From the sequence record NC_048194.1: 64,000 bases of DNA; one strand, written 5' to 3'. The position numbers and the translations under genes were made by a program. The notes below the pieces were generated by a model. It was not told the origin of the DNA. It did no database searches and saw only the letters and a list, made by a program, of their open reading frames with translations. This document shows positions 6,796-64,000 of the stretch, piece after piece (within the stretch, counting starts at the first letter, position 1; every line of letters begins with the position of its first letter). Source of the stretch: Escherichia phage vB_EcoM_WFH.

Positions 6796-7647
6796 ATGGC
6801 TTTTAAAGCTTCGAAAAAACGTGAACGCCGCTCACCCGATAGAATCGGGCGCGGCAGTCCGATAATCCCATCAAACGCTATTGCGATGGCCTACCGTCGT
6901 GAGATGAAAGGTCTTTGCTATGCGATGATTGATGACTATCAGGCAGGAATTTCAGAGTGGCTTGAAAAGAAGCAGGTGCAGAAGTTCTTTGCGCAAGACT
7001 CTGCTGATTCAACATTCCAAACTCTTATGAAACGTCTGCAGCTGAAATGGGCAAAGGCGTTTGCTCGTGTTGGGTCGAAGATTGCCGCTGATTTTATCAA
7101 GTCGGTTGAAAAGGGTGCTACTTCTGCTACATTCGCCAGCCTTAAGTCCGCAGGCATAGAAGCGCCAAAGGCCACATATAACAAATTCGTTGAGAACACT
7201 CTTAGAACAAGCGAGACGTTTAACACGACTCTAGTGACTAAGGTCGGCGAGGATATTCACAACAGAGTGTACGAAGCAGTCATGCTTTCGCTGACTTCGC
7301 CCGACCCAGCCCAGCAAGGCACGTCAGGCATTCAGGCGGCGCTGCGAAACGTAAAACACTTCTCTGCAAAGAGAGTCGACTTAATCGCTAAAGACCAGAC
7401 AAGCAAATTGTATTGCGTTCTAAGCGATGAAAGGATGCGCCAGAATGGAGTTGAAGAATTTGAATGGGCGCACTCAGGAGCAGGAAAGGAGCCGCGAATC
7501 TCTCATGAACATGTCGACGGAATGAGATTCAAACTTGATGACAAGCGTCTATGGGAAGTGGGCGGAGAGTTGAAGTTCAAAAAGGGTGACATCGGTCCTC
7601 CTGGATGGGCGATACACTGCAAGTGCAGAAAAATACCAATCATTTGA
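6796..7647 (+). CDS. head morphogenesis protein (Mu gpF / SPP1 gp7-like)
   Basis: ATG at 6796 directly after portal stop (track start 6733 is an upstream GTG overlapping portal); C-terminal ...GPPGWAIHCKCRK motif typical of MuF-like family. Confidence 0.6.
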   Translation: MAFKASKKRERRSPDRIGRGSPIIPSNAIAMAYRREMKGLCYAMIDDYQAGISEWLEKKQVQKFFAQDSADSTFQTLMKRLQLKWAKAFARVGSKIAADFIKSVEKGATSATFASLKSAGIEAPKATYNKFVENTLRTSETFNTTLVTKVGEDIHNRVYEAVMLSLTSPDPAQQGTSGIQAALRNVKHFSAKRVDLIAKDQTSKLYCVLSDERMRQNGVEEFEWAHSGAGKEPRISHEHVDGMRFKLDDKRLWEVGGELKFKKGDIGPPGWAIHCKCRKIPII

Positions 7648-8723: not shown

Positions 8724-8756
8724 ATCGCCTGGCAATGGATTGCCGCAGGATTTTAC

Positions 8757-9040
8757 GCGTATAATGACGTATCATCCGTATCAAGTAAGTAGTTGTTTTC
8801 AAAAGAATCTTACGGATGATACGGATGATACGCGTTGCCGCGATACTTTATAGGAATTCAAATAAATTAATTTAAAATTATATATCTAATTTAATTTTAT
8901 TTTTTTATAAACTCTTATATATGAAAAGTATCCGTATCATCCGTATCATCCGTAGCACACCAGTGATAGCGCGGCTTATACACCGATACGGATAAAAATA
9001 CGCCTCATTTTATCCGTATCATCCGTATCACACTAATTAA
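8757..9040. repeat. iteron module copy A: tandem/inverted 9-mers (CCGTATCAT / TTATCCGTA) flanking an AT-rich spacer
   Basis: gcgtataatgacgta..., cttacggatgatacggatgatacgcg, ~90-bp AT-rich tract, then tccgtatcatccgtatcatccgta and ttatccgtatcatccgtatca; 45-bp core nearly identical (2 mismatches) to 60229-60273. Confidence 0.7.
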
Positions 9041-58954: not shown

Positions 58955-59369
58955 TTTGACATACGATGTGGCGACAGAAGATTTCGACATCACTCCTGTT
59001 CCAGAAAGTCACGAAGGACGTTTTGTTGCATATGAGGACTACGCCGCGCTGGAAGCGAAATATAGTGAAGCGCAACGCGAGTTGGTTGCATTACGCTCAC
59101 AGGTCCGTGATGCGTCTGCGCTCGTTAAGCAGTTGCATGACGTCGTTGCTACTATAGGCGTGGATGCTGATGCGCCGAAGGAGGAAGCGTGGACCGTGTG
59201 GCATGGTGGAGAGAATCCGGTGCCTGGTAAGATGGTGGTGTTTGAATTGCGTTTCGGATATAAATCTAAATCGCCTGCTCTTTCAGATGATTTGAGATGG
59301 AAACGTAAGATGATTGATTGCCCTTCTGCATCAGACATCATAAAGTATCGCGTTGTTAAGGAGGGGTGA
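58938..59369 (+). CDS. hypothetical protein with C-terminal GGxNPVPGK module (paralogue 2)
   Basis: 143 aa; C-terminal WTVWHGGENPVPGKMVVFELRFGYKSKSPALSDDLRWKRKMIDCPSASDIIKYRVVKEG. Confidence 0.45.
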   Translation: MIQRYDLTYDVATEDFDITPVPESHEGRFVAYEDYAALEAKYSEAQRELVALRSQVRDASALVKQLHDVVATIGVDADAPKEEAWTVWHGGENPVPGKMVVFELRFGYKSKSPALSDDLRWKRKMIDCPSASDIIKYRVVKEG

Positions 59370-59818
59370 TGGGTAAACGCCTTATCGCCGCTGGTTGGGC
59401 CATACCGAAGTGGGGTCATCGTGCGCATTACTTTGACGAAGGAGAAGTGCAAAGCCTTTGTGGTCGCGCAACGTATTTCGGTGATGAGCGCGTCAGCGGT
59501 GATTATATCGACTCGCTTTTAGGTAAAGGTGATTGCAAGAAGTGTCAGAATATATTAAGAGATATTCTTACGCAAAAAGGATTGCTTGAGCTTGATGAAT
59601 CGGAAGAAGTAATTGAACTTAAGCTGGAAGCAAATTACCTTATTTATACGTTCAAGAACTATTACGCAACTAATATGCGCTCAAAAATGAGCGAGGAAGT
59701 AATAGAAAATGTGTTCACCTACAATCCGCTAAGGATGAATAAAACCAAATTGAAGAAGTTTAATATAATGTTAAGGAAAGAATTTAAAAGGCTAGGAGTG
59801 AAGAATTTTATATTTTAA
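59369..59818 (+). CDS. hypothetical protein with CxxC...CxxC pairs and Lys-rich C-terminus
   Basis: ATG at 59369 with RBS aggaggggtg (track GTG 59366); ...SLCGRATYF...GDCKKCQNIL...; last gene before strong terminator. Confidence 0.4.
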   Translation: MGKRLIAAGWAIPKWGHRAHYFDEGEVQSLCGRATYFGDERVSGDYIDSLLGKGDCKKCQNILRDILTQKGLLELDESEEVIELKLEANYLIYTFKNYYATNMRSKMSEEVIENVFTYNPLRMNKTKLKKFNIMLRKEFKRLGVKNFIF

Positions 59819-59834
59819 TAGTGATTAATGTTAA

Positions 59835-59859
59835 GAGGGCCGATTGGCCCTTTTTGTTT
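59835..59859 (+). terminator. intrinsic terminator (AGGGCC-GATT-GGCCCT + TTTTTGTTTG)
   Basis: GC-rich hairpin followed by U-tract, ends the long plus-strand small-gene array. Confidence 0.7.
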
Positions 59860-60115
59860 GTCCATGTGGTGTGAGTCTTTATTATCGGATAAAGCGATTG
59901 ATTTGTGTAAATCTATTAGAGGATTGTGGGAAGTGAGTATTGTGACGTGAATTTTGTGCCTTGGATATGTGTGCGAATTTGGAAGAATATTGTACTGTGG
60001 TGTTGTGGGATTGGAGAGGGAATCACTAGGTTTTGGGGCGTGTACCGTGGTGTGTGGGCCTGTAGGCTGCGCCGTCTCTGGGATTGCCGCTTGAAATTAA
60101 AAAGGAGATATAGTT
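59860..60115 (+). other. strand-asymmetric G+T-rich non-coding tract
   Basis: About 250 bp dominated by GTG/TGG/GGG runs on plus strand (C-rich, G-poor on minus strand); the only ORF is a Cys/Trp-rich artefact. Confidence 0.5.
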
Positions 60116-60143
60116 AGCTGGCTAACCTTACGCATAGAATTTA

Positions 60144-60440
60144 AGCGTATAATGACGTAAGATTTGGACCTATCCGTAGTTCACTCCACACACTTCTATG
60201 GTGCGCCGCGACTGGGTTCAGTGGTACATCTTACGGATGATACGGATGATACGCGTCGCCGCTATACTTTATACAACTTTGAAAAAAACAATTAACTCCA
60301 TTTTGAATTAATTTAAATTAATTTTTTTCTACATCCTCATACTTATACTAAACTTATATTTATACGTATTATCCGTAAGATATAAGTAAAAACAAAGACT
60401 TGCGGCAATACGGATGATACGTCATGATACGCTTCAACCA
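60144..60440. repeat. iteron module copy B (homologous to 8757-9040)
   Basis: gcgtataatgacgta...; tcttacggatgatacggatgatacgcgtcgccgctatactttata (45-bp core, 2 mismatches vs copy A); AT-rich spacer; ttatccgtaag and caatacggatgatacgtcatgatacgc. Confidence 0.7.
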
Positions 60441-60578
60441 GCCAGCAGCGGCTAAGTCATTGATTTGCATAACAAGCGGCGAAAGGGATGGATTTCTTTT
60501 ATGCGTATCAAACAGTACACCACGCACCACGGTCCGATATTCATTCAGCACTATGATTTATGTACTTTTACAGCCAAT

Positions 60579-60605
60579 TTGAACATCAATCTGCACTTGA
60601 ATATA
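60579..60605 (+). promoter_or_regulatory. promoter-like element (TTGAAC ... TGnAATAAT) upstream of TerS-like gene
   Basis: -35-like TTGAAC and extended -10-like TGAATAAT about 50 bp upstream of ATG 60658, followed by two tandem ATTTGCACTATG repeats. Confidence 0.35.
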
Positions 60606-60657
60606 ATGTTCAATCATTGTATAATTCACACTATTAATTTGCACTATGGGATTTGCA

Positions 60658-61133
60658 CTATGAGTCAAGATTATGTAGCAATGCCTGAAGACTTTGAAGA
60701 CCCGCGATTTGCAGAGCATAATCAGGCATTATTCGATGAGTTCATTGACCTTGTTATTCAGGGCCATGACATGCGCGCAGCTTTTGCACTAGTATTTGGC
60801 ATGGAGGTTGCGACCGATAACTACACTGGCCAGCGAATCCTGTGCACTCAGCGCAACCCGTACTACAAGATGCGCTACAAAAAGCGCATGGAAGAAATGC
60901 CATTGAAGGAATTGTGGAGCGTAAAAAGTTCCATCCACAATTTAGTGAAGCTTGTGCGTGATCCAGAAGTCGCGGCGTCAGCCAAGCTTAATGCCATTCG
61001 TGAACTGAATATCATCTACGGCATCACGATGATTGATGAAAATGGCAATAGTAAAATGGGCCGTTCCATGGACGATTTCTACAAGGATTTTGGAGAGGCA
61101 GCCAAAGAGGGTGAGCAATTCTCCCGCCACTAG
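60658..61133 (+). CDS. terminase small subunit-like DNA-binding protein (tentative)
   Basis: ATG at 60658 (track ORF 60465 starts upstream in AT-rich non-coding DNA); 158 aa; ...NQALFDEFIDLVIQGHDMRAAFALVFG...RILCTQRNPYYKMRYKK... resembles TerS N-terminal HTH pattern; start codon overlaps a repeat copy. Confidence 0.3.
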
Positions 61134-61150
61134 CCAATTTGCACTATAAA

Positions 61151-61188
61151 ACGGCCCTAGAACACATTTTCTCCACTTCTAGGGCCGT
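61151..61188 (+). terminator. stem-loop (ACGGCCCTAGAA-n14-TTCTAGGGCCGT) downstream of TerS-like gene
   Basis: 12-bp stem; no strong U-tract. Confidence 0.45.
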
Positions 61189-61561
61189 TGGTAATACGAC
61201 GGGGAAGGCTGCAACCATGAACGCGTTAGAAAGTGTATTATTATAAGTCATCTTTTAGTCACTTTACGTAACAATTTACGACCTTCCGCCGTCCAGTCGA
61301 ACGACTCCACCAGCAGATTTGCACTATAACCTAAGACGATGCGCCCCTTCTCGTTATCGACCCGCCAACAAGTCTCGAATAGCATTCGATTTGCACTATT
61401 AACTATCGCCGCAACGCGCGTTGGGTAAGCGCAATTTGCACTATGGTCGTAAAGGGATAAGGTGCGACCACTGCCGATGGACAACGTAGCGATGAGAATA
61501 AGCGTATTCATAAGCCACCAATTTGCACTATGAAAAGCGACCCCGAAGGGCCGCCATTCGA

Positions 61562-62188
61562 TTAGATAATCTGGAAGGTGTAGGACTTGTTGCCGAACTC
61601 GAAGTTCAAGCGCCCAGCTTCCTTAAGCTTCATGCGGAAGCGAATATGTTTGCTATCCGGTAAGCCCAGCGCGGCGAACGCTACGCGGACCGATTTGAAC
61701 TCGCCTACACCCTCGACCATAACGGCGTTACGGGTGAGACGCTTTTGCGCCACTTCCTTGTTATCCCAACTTTTTGCAATACCTTCGCTATTAGAACGGC
61801 GATGGGAAGGAGTTCCATTTTGCACTACGCAATTTGCACTATCGTTTAGGCCGCTCTTAACGAAGGCTTCATACTCTTCGTCGGTCATCGCGTCGAGTTC
61901 TTCCTGAGTCGGCTCGGCCTTTTTAACGACCGCACGCGCCTTATGCGTTTTTACATCGCTGGACACTTCCTCGCGCGGCTTCGCGTCGGGGATGGGCAAT
62001 TCGTTGGACGGCTCATCGAGCGCGTTTAAGGACTCGATTAACGCGATGACGCGAGTCTCAGCGGTGCGACGGTCCACAAACTTCTTAATCGGTTTTGAGC
62101 CGGAGTTGGCATTATAGAATGCAACGAGGTCGGCGGTCTTAGTTGCGATAACGTCGCCGCTAGTAGAAAAGCGATTTAAGCTAACCAT
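61562..62188 (-). CDS. hypothetical protein (208 aa)
   Basis: Track ORF in CpG-rich block; contains two ATTTGCACTAT-type motifs within its coding sequence (61817-61842); no recognised domain. Confidence 0.4.
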   Translation of the reverse strand: MVSLNRFSTSGDVIATKTADLVAFYNANSGSKPIKKFVDRRTAETRVIALIESLNALDEPSNELPIPDAKPREEVSSDVKTHKARAVVKKAEPTQEELDAMTDEEYEAFVKSGLNDSANCVVQNGTPSHRRSNSEGIAKSWDNKEVAQKRLTRNAVMVEGVGEFKSVRVAFAALGLPDSKHIRFRMKLKEAGRLNFEFGNKSYTFQII

Positions 62189-62268
62189 AATAAACTCCTA
62201 TTTGTTAGGGCGCTAGGCGCGAAAGAATTTTATTAAAGCGCCGCGCACGACGCTCTAAAAATCCTCTC

Positions 62269-62583
62269 TTACTCTTCGTCGTCTTCGATTAATTCGAAGG
62301 CGAAGGCATAAGCTTTGCTATCGTAATTAACTAAAACGGCGAGTTCGAACTCGTTAATAAACGCCGTTTTACCGCATAAATTTAATTCCGCATCGACTTC
62401 GAAGAATCCGTTTTCGTCGCGCTCTAAGCGAGAAGCAGCGAGTTGCTCGATTACCGTCGCGTCGTTAATTTCTTCGCCTAAGCGAACGCCGGAGAATTTC
62501 GCGAGAATTTCGCCGTAAGTAAGCGTAACACCCTGGACTTCGGCGGTTGCGTTTTCGAGGGTGAAGCGGGTAACGATAGCCAT
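62269..62583 (-). CDS. small acidic protein, paralogue C (104 aa)
   Basis: RBS aggag; very acidic (ends ...FELIEDDEE); similar size and charge to 62808..63110 and 63217..63507; driven by minus-strand copy of shared promoter module. Confidence 0.45.
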   Translation of the reverse strand: MAIVTRFTLENATAEVQGVTLTYGEILAKFSGVRLGEEINDATVIEQLAASRLERDENGFFEVDAELNLCGKTAFINEFELAVLVNYDSKAYAFAFELIEDDEE

Positions 62584-62651
62584 TTTAAACTCCTAGTTGG
62601 GAGAGGCGTTAACGACCTATTCGTTAACTCATCCCGTCCCGATATGAGTAC

Positions 62652-62679
62652 ATTATAATATAGTGTAGAAAAAAGTAAA
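62652..62679 (-). promoter_or_regulatory. sigma70-like promoter, minus-strand copy of shared module (TTTACT-16-TATAAT)
   Basis: Reverse complement of 62634-62686 reads AAAGTGCTTTACT...TTATAAT...ATATCGGGACGGG, matching the two plus-strand copies. Confidence 0.45.
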
Positions 62680-62723
62680 GCACTTTTTCGATAAAAATGC
62701 GATAAATTATTTTATCTTTTTTC

Positions 62724-62751
62724 TTTACTTCTTCGTACACTCGCGTATACT
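62724..62751 (+). promoter_or_regulatory. sigma70-like promoter, plus-strand copy 1 (TTTACT-16-TATACT)
   Basis: CTTTACTTCTTCGTACACT core shared with 63121-63149; followed by ATATCGAGACGGG. Confidence 0.45.
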
Positions 62752-62807
62752 TGTTTATATCGAGACGGGCGATGGCCCTTTCTTCTACTAGCATCGGGAG
62801 CTTTATT

Positions 62808-63110
62808 ATGACTACTTTAATCTCTTCCATCCTTACTTACGACGAAGACCGCTTAACCGTTCGCTCTCTTATCGCCGCCGTTAACGCGGAACTAGAATCT
62901 AGCGCCATCAAGGTCCGTGCCGTTGCCTTCGTCGGCCTTTCCTTCGACGATATTAAGTATGCAGAGTATAGCGCCATTCGCGTTGTTACTACCGACGATA
63001 ACGCCGTTACCCTTATCGAGACGGTTACGCCGCGCGGCGAAGCGTTAATTATCGTCGAGTATATCGACGTAGAAGGCGATAAAGCTTATAAATATTTTAT
63101 CGCAGAATAA
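62808..63110 (+). CDS. small acidic protein, paralogue A (100 aa)
   Basis: ATG at 62808 with RBS gggag (track start 62751 upstream); MTTLISSILTYDEDRLTVRSL... Confidence 0.45.
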   Translation: MTTLISSILTYDEDRLTVRSLIAAVNAELESSAIKVRAVAFVGLSFDDIKYAEYSAIRVVTTDDNAVTLIETVTPRGEALIIVEYIDVEGDKAYKYFIAE

Positions 63111-63120
63111 CGAAAAGTGC

Positions 63121-63149
63121 TTTACTTCTTCGTACACTAAGACTATAAT
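63121..63149 (+). promoter_or_regulatory. sigma70-like promoter, plus-strand copy 2 (TTTACT-17-TATAAT)
   Basis: AAAGTGCTTTACTTCTTCGTACACT...TATAAT...ATATCGAGAGGGG. Confidence 0.5.
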
Positions 63150-63216
63150 GTTTTATATCGAGAGGGGATGAGGTAGCGAATAGGTCGCTACCCTCCCGAC
63201 TAACTAGGAGAATATT

Positions 63217-63507
63217 ATGATTACTTTAGCCGCTATCCGTTCCGCTCGCGTCGAAACTTCCGAAAACTCTAACGTATTTGGCGAAAAACTTAAAAACGTT
63301 TATCTCTTTAACGTAGATGCGACTATCGAAGAGCTTCATAGTCCTATCGATTTTAGCGAATTTACGGAACTCGAAGAGGAAGATATTACTACCTTCCGCG
63401 TTACTATCGAAGGTAAGGTTTATTTTGCTACGGAGTTCGGCGGCGAATATCTCGCGGTATCCGAAGGCGAAGGCCGTTACTCTTTCTTTAAAATCGTCTC
63501 CTTATAA
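63217..63507 (+). CDS. small acidic protein, paralogue B (96 aa)
   Basis: ATG with RBS aggag; MITLAAIRSARVETSENSNVFGEKLKNVYLFNVDATIEELHSPIDFSEFTELEEEDITTF... Confidence 0.45.
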   Translation: MITLAAIRSARVETSENSNVFGEKLKNVYLFNVDATIEELHSPIDFSEFTELEEEDITTFRVTIEGKVYFATEFGGEYLAVSEGEGRYSFFKIVSL

Positions 63508-63527
63508 TACCCTTCCGTTACTAATAG

Positions 63528-63553
63528 GCCGCGCTTAGTCGCGGCTTTTCTTC
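63528..63553 (+). terminator. intrinsic terminator (GCCGCG-CTTAGT-CGCGGC + TTTTCTTCG)
   Basis: GC stem plus U-tract directly after paralogue B. Confidence 0.6.
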
Positions 63554-63960
63554 GTCCCTATCTCGATGCGCTTCTCCGCGAAAACTCCTTTATCCTTCCC
63601 TTCGTCGTCGCATAATCTTCGTCGAGATGCGCCTTAGTTCGCATAACAGGTATTACGTTAAATGGAGAACATCGCGTAAGTCCTTGTTTTATATAGACAC
63701 CTATATCGGACCGTTAGGGAGGGTCGCGCAAGTCGTTGTTTTATAAAGGCGCAAAACTTTCCCTTCGTTCCGAACTAAAACGAGAAATATGCCGACCCTT
63801 CGCCCGAAAATAGTACGCATGCGAAATTACATGTATCTAGAATAATCCCCACCGATATTATCCTACACGCAATCATTAGCTTTCGAATCATTATGCTTCA
63901 TACTATTATGCGTCGAATCATTCGCTTTCTAATTGTAACGCTGGAAACTGTAACGGCGAT
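63554..63960. repeat. ORF-free tract rich in short direct repeats at window end
   Basis: No ORF of 60 aa or more; recurring short motifs (AATCATT x3, TTCGAATCATT x2, TTGTTTTATA x2, GATGCGC x2, CGCATAA x2, TGTAACG x2); window ends inside it. Confidence 0.4.
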
Positions 63961-64000
63961 TGATTATTGCGTTCGTGTGGTTTTTAGGGCATGGGTCTTT

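What the first reader, a model, noticed from the sequence alone, without database searches (positions are those of the whole stretch)
63554..63960. Repeat-dense non-coding tract at the window end
After the last terminator there is at least 400 bp with no ORF of 60 aa or more and many short direct repeats (AATCATT, TTCGAATCATT, TTGTTTTATA, GATGCGC, CGCATAA, TGTAACG), in the same CpG-rich composition as the preceding block. This looks like a genome terminus, terminal-repeat boundary or origin-like region; the window cuts it, so its extent is unknown.
Basis: seen in the sequence. Interest (0 to 1): 0.35.

Follow-up and report, generated by a model that had tools for sequence, protein, structure and literature searches.

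The report
Non-coding end of phage terminal repeat
The tract is the conserved, gene-free last ~490 bp of a 3.7-kb direct terminal repeat of a Wifcevirus coliphage and ends at the predicted physical right end of the virus chromosome; most of its "repeats" are one 15-bp periodic array next to the cut site that probably guides the DNA-packaging enzyme.

Summary
63508-64000 has no conserved ORF, no promoter and no Rfam hit, and it has more short repeats than shuffles do (k=7: 23 vs 7.7±3.6). The window is a Wifcevirus. Base 64000 is the end of the source record, not an arbitrary cut. It coincides with the right end of the direct terminal repeat (DTR) predicted from read starts in phage Mansfield, with the DTR end in Ro157lw, and with the homologous point in Pantoea phage Kyle. 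The right DTR copy is 60300-64000.

The tract is more conserved (0.95-0.99) than the flanking genes (0.63-0.88). AATCATT, TTCGAATCATT and TGTAACG belong to one degenerate 15-bp periodic array (63871-63975) that abuts the terminus; Kyle has the same kind of array. TTGTTTTATA marks two 25-nt IHF-like units that recur, inverted, near the left end.

Best reading: a terminase recognition and cleavage region plus a transcription-free buffer. It is laid out like the untranslated T5 terminal-repeat end but has no DnaA boxes. An origin, a gene or an RNA is not supported.

Side finding: the distal ~2 kb of the DTR is purged of CA/TG steps (o/e 0.36) in three genera, which is unexplained.

The parts
60300..64000 (.). 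Right-hand copy of the direct terminal repeat (3,701 bp); the tract is its distal end
   Evidence: The first 30-40 nt of the Mansfield, WFC, Ro157lw and ECP records map to 60300. The repeat ends in Mansfield (PhageTerm) and Ro157lw align to 64000.
63217..63507 (+). Last protein-coding gene of the repeat (96 aa, no known family)
   Evidence: ORF list; annotated in all relatives; no Pfam or PHROG hit.
63526..63547 (+). Intrinsic terminator closing the rightward early transcription unit
   Evidence: Stem of 8 pairs (6 G-C) followed by a T run. Also annotated in Mansfield and WFC. Invariant in the alignment.
63508..64000 (.). Non-coding tract: 493 bp from the last stop codon to the chromosome end
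   Evidence: No conserved ORF. No Rfam hit in the tract. No sigma-70-like promoter on the + strand and only one weak 9/12 match on the - strand. Not structured as a single strand, z -1.3 to +0.6. Mean pairwise identity 0.95-0.99 against 0.63-0.88 for flanking genes.
63565..63646 (.).
   Evidence: 7 copies in 450 bp against 1.0 expected from the window-wide frequency. Function unknown.
63672..63696 (-).
   Evidence: This is the most conserved 50 nt of the tract, identity 0.99.
63703..63714 (+). 12-mer ATATCGGACCGT, repeated inverted at 60529-60540 inside the left part of the repeat
   Evidence: blastn-short, E 0.019. Marginal on its own.
63724..63748 (-). Second 25-nt repeat unit, containing AAAACAACGACTTGCG on the - strand
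   Evidence: The 16-nt motif has only three perfect hits in 64 kb; the third is at 60389-60404 (+), 90 bp inside the left end.
63871..63975 (+).
   Evidence: Autocorrelation peaks at lags 15, 30 and 45, z 4-5, family-wise P<0.0005. The same holds in Mansfield, WFC and Ro157lw. Kyle has a 13-unit array of the same period and wording ending 8 nt before its terminus. One unit is among only four segments still alignable between the genera.
63976..64000 (+). Terminal core TGTGGTTTTTAGGGCATGGGTCTTT, ending at the predicted physical right end of the chromosome
   Evidence: Identity 0.99 within the genus. TAGGGC..GGG and the following TGGTGCG(A/T)TTT are recognisable in Serratia phage MTx, and GCGWTTTRGTAC..CAGTACACTAATCA in Kyle.
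60389..60404 (+). Left-end copy of the 16-nt motif AAAACAAAGACTTGCG, inverted relative to the two copies in the tract
   Evidence: chance expectation 0.44 hits at up to 2 mismatches, against 3 perfect hits observed.
60660..61133 (+). Small terminase gene (terS), inside the same repeat
   Evidence: phmmer E 9e-33 to PDB 7UXE 'Small terminase' (10 chains in the entry). The review PMC9611059 reports E217 TerS as a decamer. Annotated as TerS in Mansfield.

Best explanation
SHOWN. The tract is the non-coding distal end of the right copy of a 3.7-kb direct terminal repeat of a Wifcevirus. Its last base is the end of the source record and the predicted physical right end of the packaged chromosome. 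It is not a gene, not a structured RNA and not a promoter region. It is under stronger purifying selection than the genes around it. Its last ~130 bp consist of a 15-bp periodic array of near-palindromic AATCATT-like words followed by a 25-bp core that runs to the terminus. In replicating DNA the conserved sequence continues across the cut: ...TAGGGCATGGGTCTTT | TGGTGCGTTTTGGTAC..AAATTTGCAGTACACTAATCA.

INFERRED. The array, the core and the first ~50 bp beyond the cut together form the signal where the phage terminase makes the sequence-specific cut that creates the right chromosome end and so sets the right boundary of the repeat. The terminase would be the ring-forming small subunit encoded 3.3 kb upstream in the same repeat, working with the large subunit. 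The array would be the docking site. The proximal ~300 bp holds two IHF-like 25-nt units that recur inverted near the left end, plus the ATGCG words. I read it as accessory: binding sites for an architectural protein, and a stretch kept free of transcription by the terminator at 63526-63547. This tract alone cannot show whether the cut starts or finishes packaging.
For: Terminus: PhageTerm in Mansfield, two identical copies in Ro157lw; Kyle repeat of 3,603 bp, copies identical; homologous boundary positions.

Record end: WFH contig of 71,283 bp with a ~3.7-kb repeat; a 71,283-nt record in ungapped register with the window.

Functional constraint: (0.95-0.99 against 0.63-0.88, with conservation continuing ~150 bp past the cut).

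Not coding, RNA or promoter.

Periodic array abutting the cut in two genera that otherwise share almost no DNA similarity.

Motifs shared in inverted orientation between the two repeat ends.

Genuine TerS in the repeat. Its DNA site is unknown in this lineage.

Precedents, from my own knowledge: SPP1 TerS contacts DNA on both sides of the cut, and lambda cosB carries an IHF site.
Against: Nothing here shows protein binding. The Pbunavirus homologue of this TerS showed no appreciable DNA binding in vitro. HK97 TerS reads DNA by threading it through the ring, which needs no periodic array. Serratia phage MTx shows no 15-bp periodicity, and its PhageTerm end lies ~17 nt upstream of the homologous point. 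The WFC record ends its repeat 81 bp further right. The left boundary has neither a comparable array nor the core, so the two cuts cannot be recognised in the same way. The array's first units are the most variable part of the tract, identity 0.80. The two shared motifs are individually marginal (E 0.019 each).
Confidence: 0.6

Rival explanations
1. A DNA-entry control region like the injection stop signal (iss) of phage T5. The repeat would enter first, and the non-coding tract at its inner boundary would pause transfer until early proteins are made.
For: The layout matches T5: rightward genes, a terminator, an untranslated repeat-rich tract, the end of the terminal repeat, more non-coding DNA, then convergent genes (annotation). 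The repeat carries small genes behind strong sigma-70-type promoters. In Kyle and MTx, Chi sites are oriented to act on RecBCD entering from the left end, which suggests the left end is the exposed one.
Against: The tract has no DnaA box with up to one mismatch, whereas Davison reports eight conserved boxes in T5-like iss regions. No two-step transfer is known for these phages. The part of the tract conserved between genera sits at and across the cut, which fits cleavage better than a stop site.
Confidence: 0.15
2. Conserved spacer with no sequence-specific role. The repeats would be by-products of unusual composition, and the conservation would reflect recent recombination or hitchhiking with neighbouring regulatory DNA.
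For: The repeat density is only in the top 3.5-8% of same-size stretches of this genome. AATCATT is not over-represented genome-wide, 22 hits against 18 expected. Promoter regions nearby are equally conserved.
Against: The 15-bp phasing survives shuffling tests (P<0.0005) and recurs in Kyle at the same place relative to the terminus despite the loss of nearly all other similarity. The 16-nt motif has exactly three perfect copies in 64 kb, all near repeat ends. A ~490-bp stretch at 95-99% identity between genes at 63-88% is hard to explain by hitchhiking.
Confidence: 0.12
3. Replication origin: iterons plus an unwinding element at the chromosome end.
For: Short direct repeats in non-coding DNA are typical of origins.
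Against: The tract has no DnaA box and no AT-rich unwinding stretch; its G+C is 43%, close to the window's. More origin-like architecture lies elsewhere: GGATGATACG iterons flanking an AT-rich centre at 60230-60430 and 8768-9024.
Confidence: 0.05
4. A small gene: a 34-39 aa protein (Mansfield annotates one at the equivalent of 63701-63820, - strand) or a non-coding RNA.
For: Mansfield gp008 is annotated there. The ORFs are open in most relatives.
Against: Start codons are lost in some genomes, there is a 21-nt deletion and an early stop, substitutions are nearly all non-synonymous, and there is no Shine-Dalgarno sequence. The other annotated relative records inspected call no gene there. There is no Rfam match in the tract, no promoter/terminator pair and no excess structure.
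Confidence: 0.04

Closest known systems
Untranslated repeat region containing the injection stop signal (iss) at the inner end of the phage T5 left terminal repeat
   Same: Both are long direct terminal repeats carrying early genes. In both, the last rightward genes end in a terminator, followed by a gene-free tract rich in direct and inverted repeats that runs to the end of the repeat, then more non-coding DNA and convergent genes (Davison, bioRxiv 10.1101/866236).
   Different: T5's tract is about 1 kb in a 10.2-kb repeat and carries eight conserved DnaA boxes; this one is ~0.49 kb in a 3.7-kb repeat and has none. Two-step injection is shown for T5 and is unknown here. The 15-bp array abutting the terminus is not a feature that Davison's abstract mentions for T5.
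Terminase recognition sites with repeated boxes flanking the cut: SPP1/SF6 pacL-pacC-pacR, and lambda cosB (R sites plus IHF site I1)
   Same: A ring-forming TerS gene lies close by. Repeated short boxes lie on one side of the cut and a conserved segment on the other. There are IHF-like words. The review PMC9611059 notes multiple TerS contact points flanking the SPP1 cut. The details of SPP1 and lambda rest on my own knowledge.
   Different: SPP1 packages by headful and lambda makes cohesive ends, whereas this phage has exact ends with a 3.7-kb repeat, so two different specific cuts are needed. TerS binding is untested here. The box period (15 bp) and sequence are unrelated to those systems.
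Phage T7 concatemer junction: short repeat arrays next to the 160-bp terminal repeat (recalled from memory, not checked here)
   Same: A direct terminal repeat with exact ends, and arrays of short phased repeats immediately next to a repeat boundary that have been implicated in concatemer processing and packaging.
   Different: In T7 the arrays lie outside the repeat, the repeat is 160 bp, and the phage uses its own RNA polymerase. Here the array lies inside a 3.7-kb repeat. There is no sequence similarity.

Membership tests
Direct terminal repeat (DTR) end of a Wifcevirus genome | The sequence belongs to the stretch that is present identically at both ends of the virion DNA | tested here: met
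   The window holds only the right copy. The homologous stretch is duplicated with 0 mismatches in the WFC (3,784 bp), Ro157lw (3,533 bp) and Kyle (3,603 bp) records.
Direct terminal repeat (DTR) end of a Wifcevirus genome | The boundary coincides with a physical DNA end (read-start peaks, or restriction or run-off mapping) | not testable with these tools
   No reads are available. PhageTerm read-start analysis in Mansfield puts the end at the base homologous to window 64000. WFC differs by +81 bp.
T5-type injection stop signal region | Large untranslated, repeat-rich tract at the inner end of the terminal repeat, after a terminator | tested here: met
   compared with the T5 annotation.
T5-type injection stop signal region | Conserved set of DnaA boxes (eight in T5-like phages, per Davison) | tested here: not met
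   No match to TTATCCACA with up to 1 mismatch in 63401-64000 plus 298 bp beyond. The one relaxed match (TTWTNCACA, 1 mismatch) is no more than chance gives.
T5-type injection stop signal region | Two-step DNA transfer that pauses at the tract | not testable with these tools
   This needs infection experiments. Nothing is reported for Wifcevirus in the papers read.
Terminase recognition site (pac/cos-type) of a TerS-dependent packaging system | A small terminase of a known structural family is encoded by the phage | tested here: met
   E 9e-33 to PDB 7UXE small terminase.
Terminase recognition site (pac/cos-type) of a TerS-dependent packaging system | Conserved sequence elements at and flanking the cut site | tested here: met
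   The 15-bp array lies inside the cut and a conserved 44 nt lies outside it. Both are shared by Wifcevirus and Kyle, and the core is recognisable in MTx.
Terminase recognition site (pac/cos-type) of a TerS-dependent packaging system | Specific binding by TerS and cleavage by TerL at the site | not testable with these tools
   This is biochemistry. The Pbunavirus homologue bound DNA poorly in vitro.
Iteron or DnaA-type replication origin | DnaA boxes or iterons next to an AT-rich unwinding element | tested here: not met
   No DnaA boxes. The tract's G+C is 43% with no AT-rich stretch. The iteron plus AT-rich architecture is found at 60230-60430 and 8768-9024 instead.
Known RNA family (Rfam) | Match to a covariance model | tested here: not met
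   Only one sub-threshold hit in 59500-64000, and it lies outside the tract.

The most novel reading that the evidence does not exclude
The chromosome end is a composite device that has not been described. (a) The 15-bp array plus the core that straddles the cut would be the long-sought DNA recognition site of the decameric PB1/E217-type small terminase. (b) The adjacent ~2 kb of the repeat, including the first part of the tract, would be kept almost free of CA:TG base steps by selection, because this DNA must escape or resist something that reads that step: a nuclease, a defence system, or a mechanical constraint at the end of the packaged DNA. The purge is conserved by position in three genera that share no sequence there (Wifcevirus, Kylevirus, Myosmarvirus), and it is still constraining polymorphism.
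Probability: 0.3. Interest if true: 0.75.

Novelty: new member of a known kind. Interest (0 to 1): 0.4.

Why it matters
For the finding as given: it fixes where this genome physically ends. It also shows that the tract is a cis-acting end region and not junk or a missed gene, which matters for annotating and engineering these fast-replicating coliphages. The BASEL authors flag Wifcevirus as understudied.

More broadly, how ring-shaped small terminases recognise DNA is still debated, and the site for the PB1/E217-type decamer is unknown. A phased array abutting a precisely mapped cut, conserved in two genera, gives a concrete substrate to test. How phages with long exact terminal repeats make two different specific cuts is also unresolved, and the asymmetry between the two boundaries found here bears on it.

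The CA/TG-purged block next to the tract is the most surprising observation. If it is adaptive, it points to an unknown pressure acting on the DNA at a phage chromosome end.

Tried and rejected
- Tandem Repeats Finder found nothing in the tract. The array is too degenerate for it, and autocorrelation was needed.
- Rfam at E<=1 gave no hit in the tract.
- Sigma-70 promoter and terminator scan: only the known terminator and one weak - strand match.
- Single-strand folding of eight 150-nt pieces on both strands gave z -1.3 to +0.6.
- All three small ORFs, including Mansfield's annotated gp008, were rejected.
- DnaA boxes and Fis sites: none. The IHF consensus gave only one-mismatch hits, and those coincide with the 25-nt units.
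- I first counted ECP_WGS_SA1 as a third independent record ending at base 64000. I rejected that because it is a reference-guided consensus with N runs in exact register with the window. It is still useful for showing that the source record is 71,283 nt long.
- The link between AATCATT and the GGATGATACG iterons (8/10 match on the opposite strand) is too weak to use.
- There is no 15-bp periodicity at the left boundary, beyond the right boundary, or in MTx.
- Pfam and PHROGs gave no function for the five genes of the repeat other than terS.
- T5 and SPO1 terminal repeats do not show the CA/TG purge; T5 has only a mild CpG excess.
- A literature search for CA/TG depletion in phages found nothing relevant.
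- A TerS structure prediction was submitted but not collected, because the PDB sequence match made it unnecessary.

Full report
WHAT THE WINDOW IS. Window 62600-64000 matches 27 phage genomes at 87-99.6% identity, all of them Wifcevirus myoviruses of E. coli or Shigella. Korf et al. [quoted passage not shown] The window starts at the equivalent of WFC position ~7207. A 71,283-nt GenBank record, ECP_WGS_SA1, is full of N runs and lies in ungapped register with the window: its position 7284 equals window base 1, and 6,289 matches plus 947 N fall within 7,401 compared positions. It is therefore a reference-guided consensus built on the window's source. So the window is positions 7284-71283 of a 71,283-nt record, and base 64000 is the end of that record.

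THE TERMINUS. Mansfield's record opens at a 3,673-bp direct terminal repeat (DTR) predicted by PhageTerm from read starts. Its last 40 nt are identical to the last 40 nt of the window. Ro157lw carries both copies (3,533 bp, 0 mismatches) and ends on the same 40 nt. The heads of the Mansfield, WFC, Ro157lw and ECP records map to window 60300, so the right DTR copy is 60300-64000 (3,701 bp). WFC is discrepant: its repeat is 3,784 bp and ends 81 bp further right. Pantoea phage Kyle (genus Kylevirus; DTR 3,603 bp, identical copies) ends at the homologous point: Kyle ...GTGTGCCCTT|GACCGCGATTTAGTAC against Wifcevirus ...ATGGGTCTTT|TGGTGCGTTTTGGTAC. In Serratia phage MTx (PhageTerm DTR 3,566 bp) the same core, TTAGGGCGAGGGC-TGGTGCGATTT, is present, but the predicted end lies ~17 nt upstream of it.

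THE OBSERVATION. The last gene ends at 63507 and a strong intrinsic terminator lies at 63526-63547. The remaining DNA to 64000 has only 38-39 aa ORFs. Across 12 genomes these lose start codons, carry a 21-nt deletion or an early stop, and change almost only non-synonymously. Mansfield's annotated 39-aa gene is therefore not supported. Repeated k-mers exceed dinucleotide shuffles (k=7: 23 vs 7.7±3.6; k=8: 12 vs 2.1±1.9). Against the rest of this genome the tract ranks only in the top 3.5-8%. CpG o/e is ~2 throughout, against a window mean of 1.13.

ANATOMY. (i) AATCATT (63871, 63886, 63916) and TGTAACG (63934, 63949) sit on one 15-nt register. Seven units span 63871-63975, with a possible weaker unit at 63856. 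Autocorrelation peaks at lags 15, 30 and 45 (z 4-5, family-wise P<0.0005). This holds for this part only, not for 63551-63860, not at the left boundary and not beyond the right boundary. Mansfield, WFC and Ro157lw show the same pattern. Kyle has 13 units of TAATNNTTA-type words at the same period, ending 8 nt before its terminus. MTx does not show it. (ii) 63976-64000 is a core with 0.99 identity in the genus. High conservation continues ~150 bp past the cut in the left-copy or concatemer context. (iii) TTGTTTTATA marks two 25-nt units (63672-63696 and 63724-63748). Their - strand reads AAAACAANGACTTRCG, an IHF-like word with one mismatch. That 16-mer has exactly three perfect hits in 64 kb, and the third is at 60389-60404 on the + strand, 90 bp inside the left end. 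A 12-mer between the two units (63703-63714) also recurs inverted, at 60529-60540. (iv) GATGCGC and CGCATAA share the core ATGCG/CGCAT, which occurs 7 times against 1.0 expected.

CONSTRAINT. Mean pairwise identity among 12 genomes is 0.95-0.99 over 63508-63857. It is 0.80 over 63858-63907 (the first array units, where spacer positions vary) and 0.92-0.99 from 63908 to ~150 bp past the cut. The flanking genes score 0.63-0.88. Between Wifcevirus and Kyle only four segments of the distal 2.2 kb still align: two early promoters, one array unit (E 0.014), and the 44 nt just beyond the cut (E 9.5e-5). Kyle's tract is also repeat-dense (k=7: 22 vs 6.2±3.2), whereas MTx's is marginal.

WHAT IT IS NOT. 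The tract has no Rfam family and no excess single-strand structure. It has no sigma-70-like promoter apart from one weak - strand match. It has no DnaA box, and its G+C (43%) is close to the window's, with no AT-rich element. No gene begins beyond the boundary in any relative.

MECHANISM. The gene at 60660-61133 is a true small terminase (E 9e-33 to PDB 7UXE). The review PMC9611059 reports the E217 homologue as a decamer with no appreciable DNA binding in vitro, so its site is unknown. I infer that the phased array, the core and the conserved 44 nt beyond the cut form the terminase signal for the right-end cut. I take the proximal 300 bp to be accessory architectural sites and a transcription-free buffer behind the terminator. 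The closest precedents are SPP1 pacL-pacC-pacR and lambda cosB with its IHF site (my own knowledge), and by layout the untranslated iss region of the T5 terminal repeat. The defining DnaA boxes of the T5 region are absent. HK97 shows that a ring TerS can instead thread DNA and slide along it, so wrapping around a phased array is only one possibility. Confidence is about 0.9 that this is the DTR end and about 0.6 that it acts as the end-processing signal.

THINGS FOUND ON THE WAY. The distal ~2 kb of the DTR (about 61900-63800) is purged of CA and TG: o/e 0.36 each against 1.18 elsewhere. CG is 2.09 against 1.09 and TA is 1.21 against 0.65. It is the only such run in the 64 kb. All eight CA/TG-containing trinucleotides are depleted (0.10-0.49), only pyrimidine-purine steps are affected, and CTAG is 13-fold enriched. 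The purge covers genes on both strands, their promoters (TTTACT rather than TTGACA) and the first part of the tract. It holds in divergent alleles and in accessory genes. It recurs at the same DTR position in Kyle (minimum 0.19) and in two Myosmarvirus genomes (0.1-0.3), which share no DNA similarity there. It is absent from Pbunavirus, Salmonella PCSE1, a metagenomic sister lineage, T5 and SPO1. Polymorphisms that change CA/TG content are under-represented in the block (25-31% against 39% expected; the control region gave 46% against 45%). Where they occur, the CA/TG-making allele is mostly the minor one, 23 against 8. I found no description of this in the library searched and cannot explain it.

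The proximal half of the DTR carries a one-orientation array of TTTGCACTA: 10 copies on the + strand only, against 0.66 expected. Variant copies lie at +25 and +122 beyond the right cut. Kyle has equivalent boxes plus nine Chi sites, and MTx has four Chi sites, all oriented to act on RecBCD entering from the left end.

The left-boundary region (60228-60432) is paralogous to a non-coding gap at 8750-9030, upstream of the prohead protease gene, and shares GGATGATACG iterons and an AT-rich centre with it.

VERDICT. The terminal repeat of this genus is already on record. The anatomy of its non-coding end is new detail of a known kind.

Noticed in passing
window 61900-63800 (also Kyle L016:1600-3400, MTx L018:1400-3300, L035): A ~2-kb block of the terminal repeat is almost free of CA and TG dinucleotides (o/e 0.36, down to 0.1-0.2 locally), with CG and TA each about doubled and CTAG 13-fold enriched. 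It covers genes on both strands, promoters and non-coding DNA. It is conserved by position in three genera without sequence similarity, and it still constrains polymorphism. The encoded proteins almost lack Gln, Cys, Trp and internal Met. The cause is unknown.
   Followed up: partly
window 60638-61841 (+ strand); variant copies at Mansfield L001:3699 and 3796: TTTGCACTA occurs 10 times (8 as ATTTGCACTAT), all on the + strand, across terS and the oppositely oriented genes, and nowhere else in the window (chance 0.66). No -10 element follows, so these are not promoters. Kyle has 9 equivalent TT(C)GCACTA boxes. This looks like a polar signal for a DNA-tracking protein.
   Followed up: partly
Kyle L016:255-1972; MTx L018:179-1276; L035; window 61307: Chi sites (as CCACCAGC on the + strand) are clustered in one orientation in the proximal half of the repeat: 9 in Kyle, 4 each in MTx and L035, 1 in this window. 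That orientation acts on RecBCD entering from the left chromosome end.
   Followed up: partly
window 8750-9030 and 60140-60432: The non-coding gap upstream of the prohead protease gene is a paralogue of the region around the left terminus. They share a 46-nt match at 96%, GGATGATACG units (6 and 3-4 copies, direct and inverted) and an AT-rich AATTAATTTAAA centre. The left chromosome end (60300) falls in that AT-rich centre. This could be a shared late-promoter/operator or an origin-like module.
   Followed up: partly
WFC record (L002:3703-3784): The WFC GenBank record ends its terminal repeat 81 bp to the right of the point used in Mansfield, Ro157lw and this window's source, although the sequence there is nearly identical. 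Either the boundary call is imprecise or the cut really differs.
   Followed up: no
PQ604604.1 (L003, L008): The 'UNVERIFIED' record ECP_WGS_SA1 has the same length as the window's source (71,283 nt), many N runs and exact coordinate register with it, and its two repeat copies differ at 24 positions. It looks like a reference-guided consensus and not an independent assembly.
   Followed up: yes
between window 63507 and 63526 (relatives: Ro157lw L006:2825-3034, F13 L011:2105-2314, FEC19): Some relatives carry an extra 210-nt gene (annotated 'transcriptional regulator' in F13 and in the RefSeq ECML-117 and FEC19 records) inserted just upstream of the terminator and tract. ECO71P1 has a different 153-nt insert earlier. 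These accessory genes also follow the CA/TG purge.
   Followed up: partly
window 62652-62751 and 63121-63149: The early promoters in the purged block use TTTACT as the -35 element (no TG or CA) with TATAAT or TATACT. The promoter region is one of only four segments still alignable between Wifcevirus and Kyle.
   Followed up: no
window 59850-60100: A G/T-rich non-coding stretch (GC skew +0.30 for 59001-60000) lies after a terminator at 59833-59854, just upstream of the left boundary of the repeat. Not examined.
   Followed up: no
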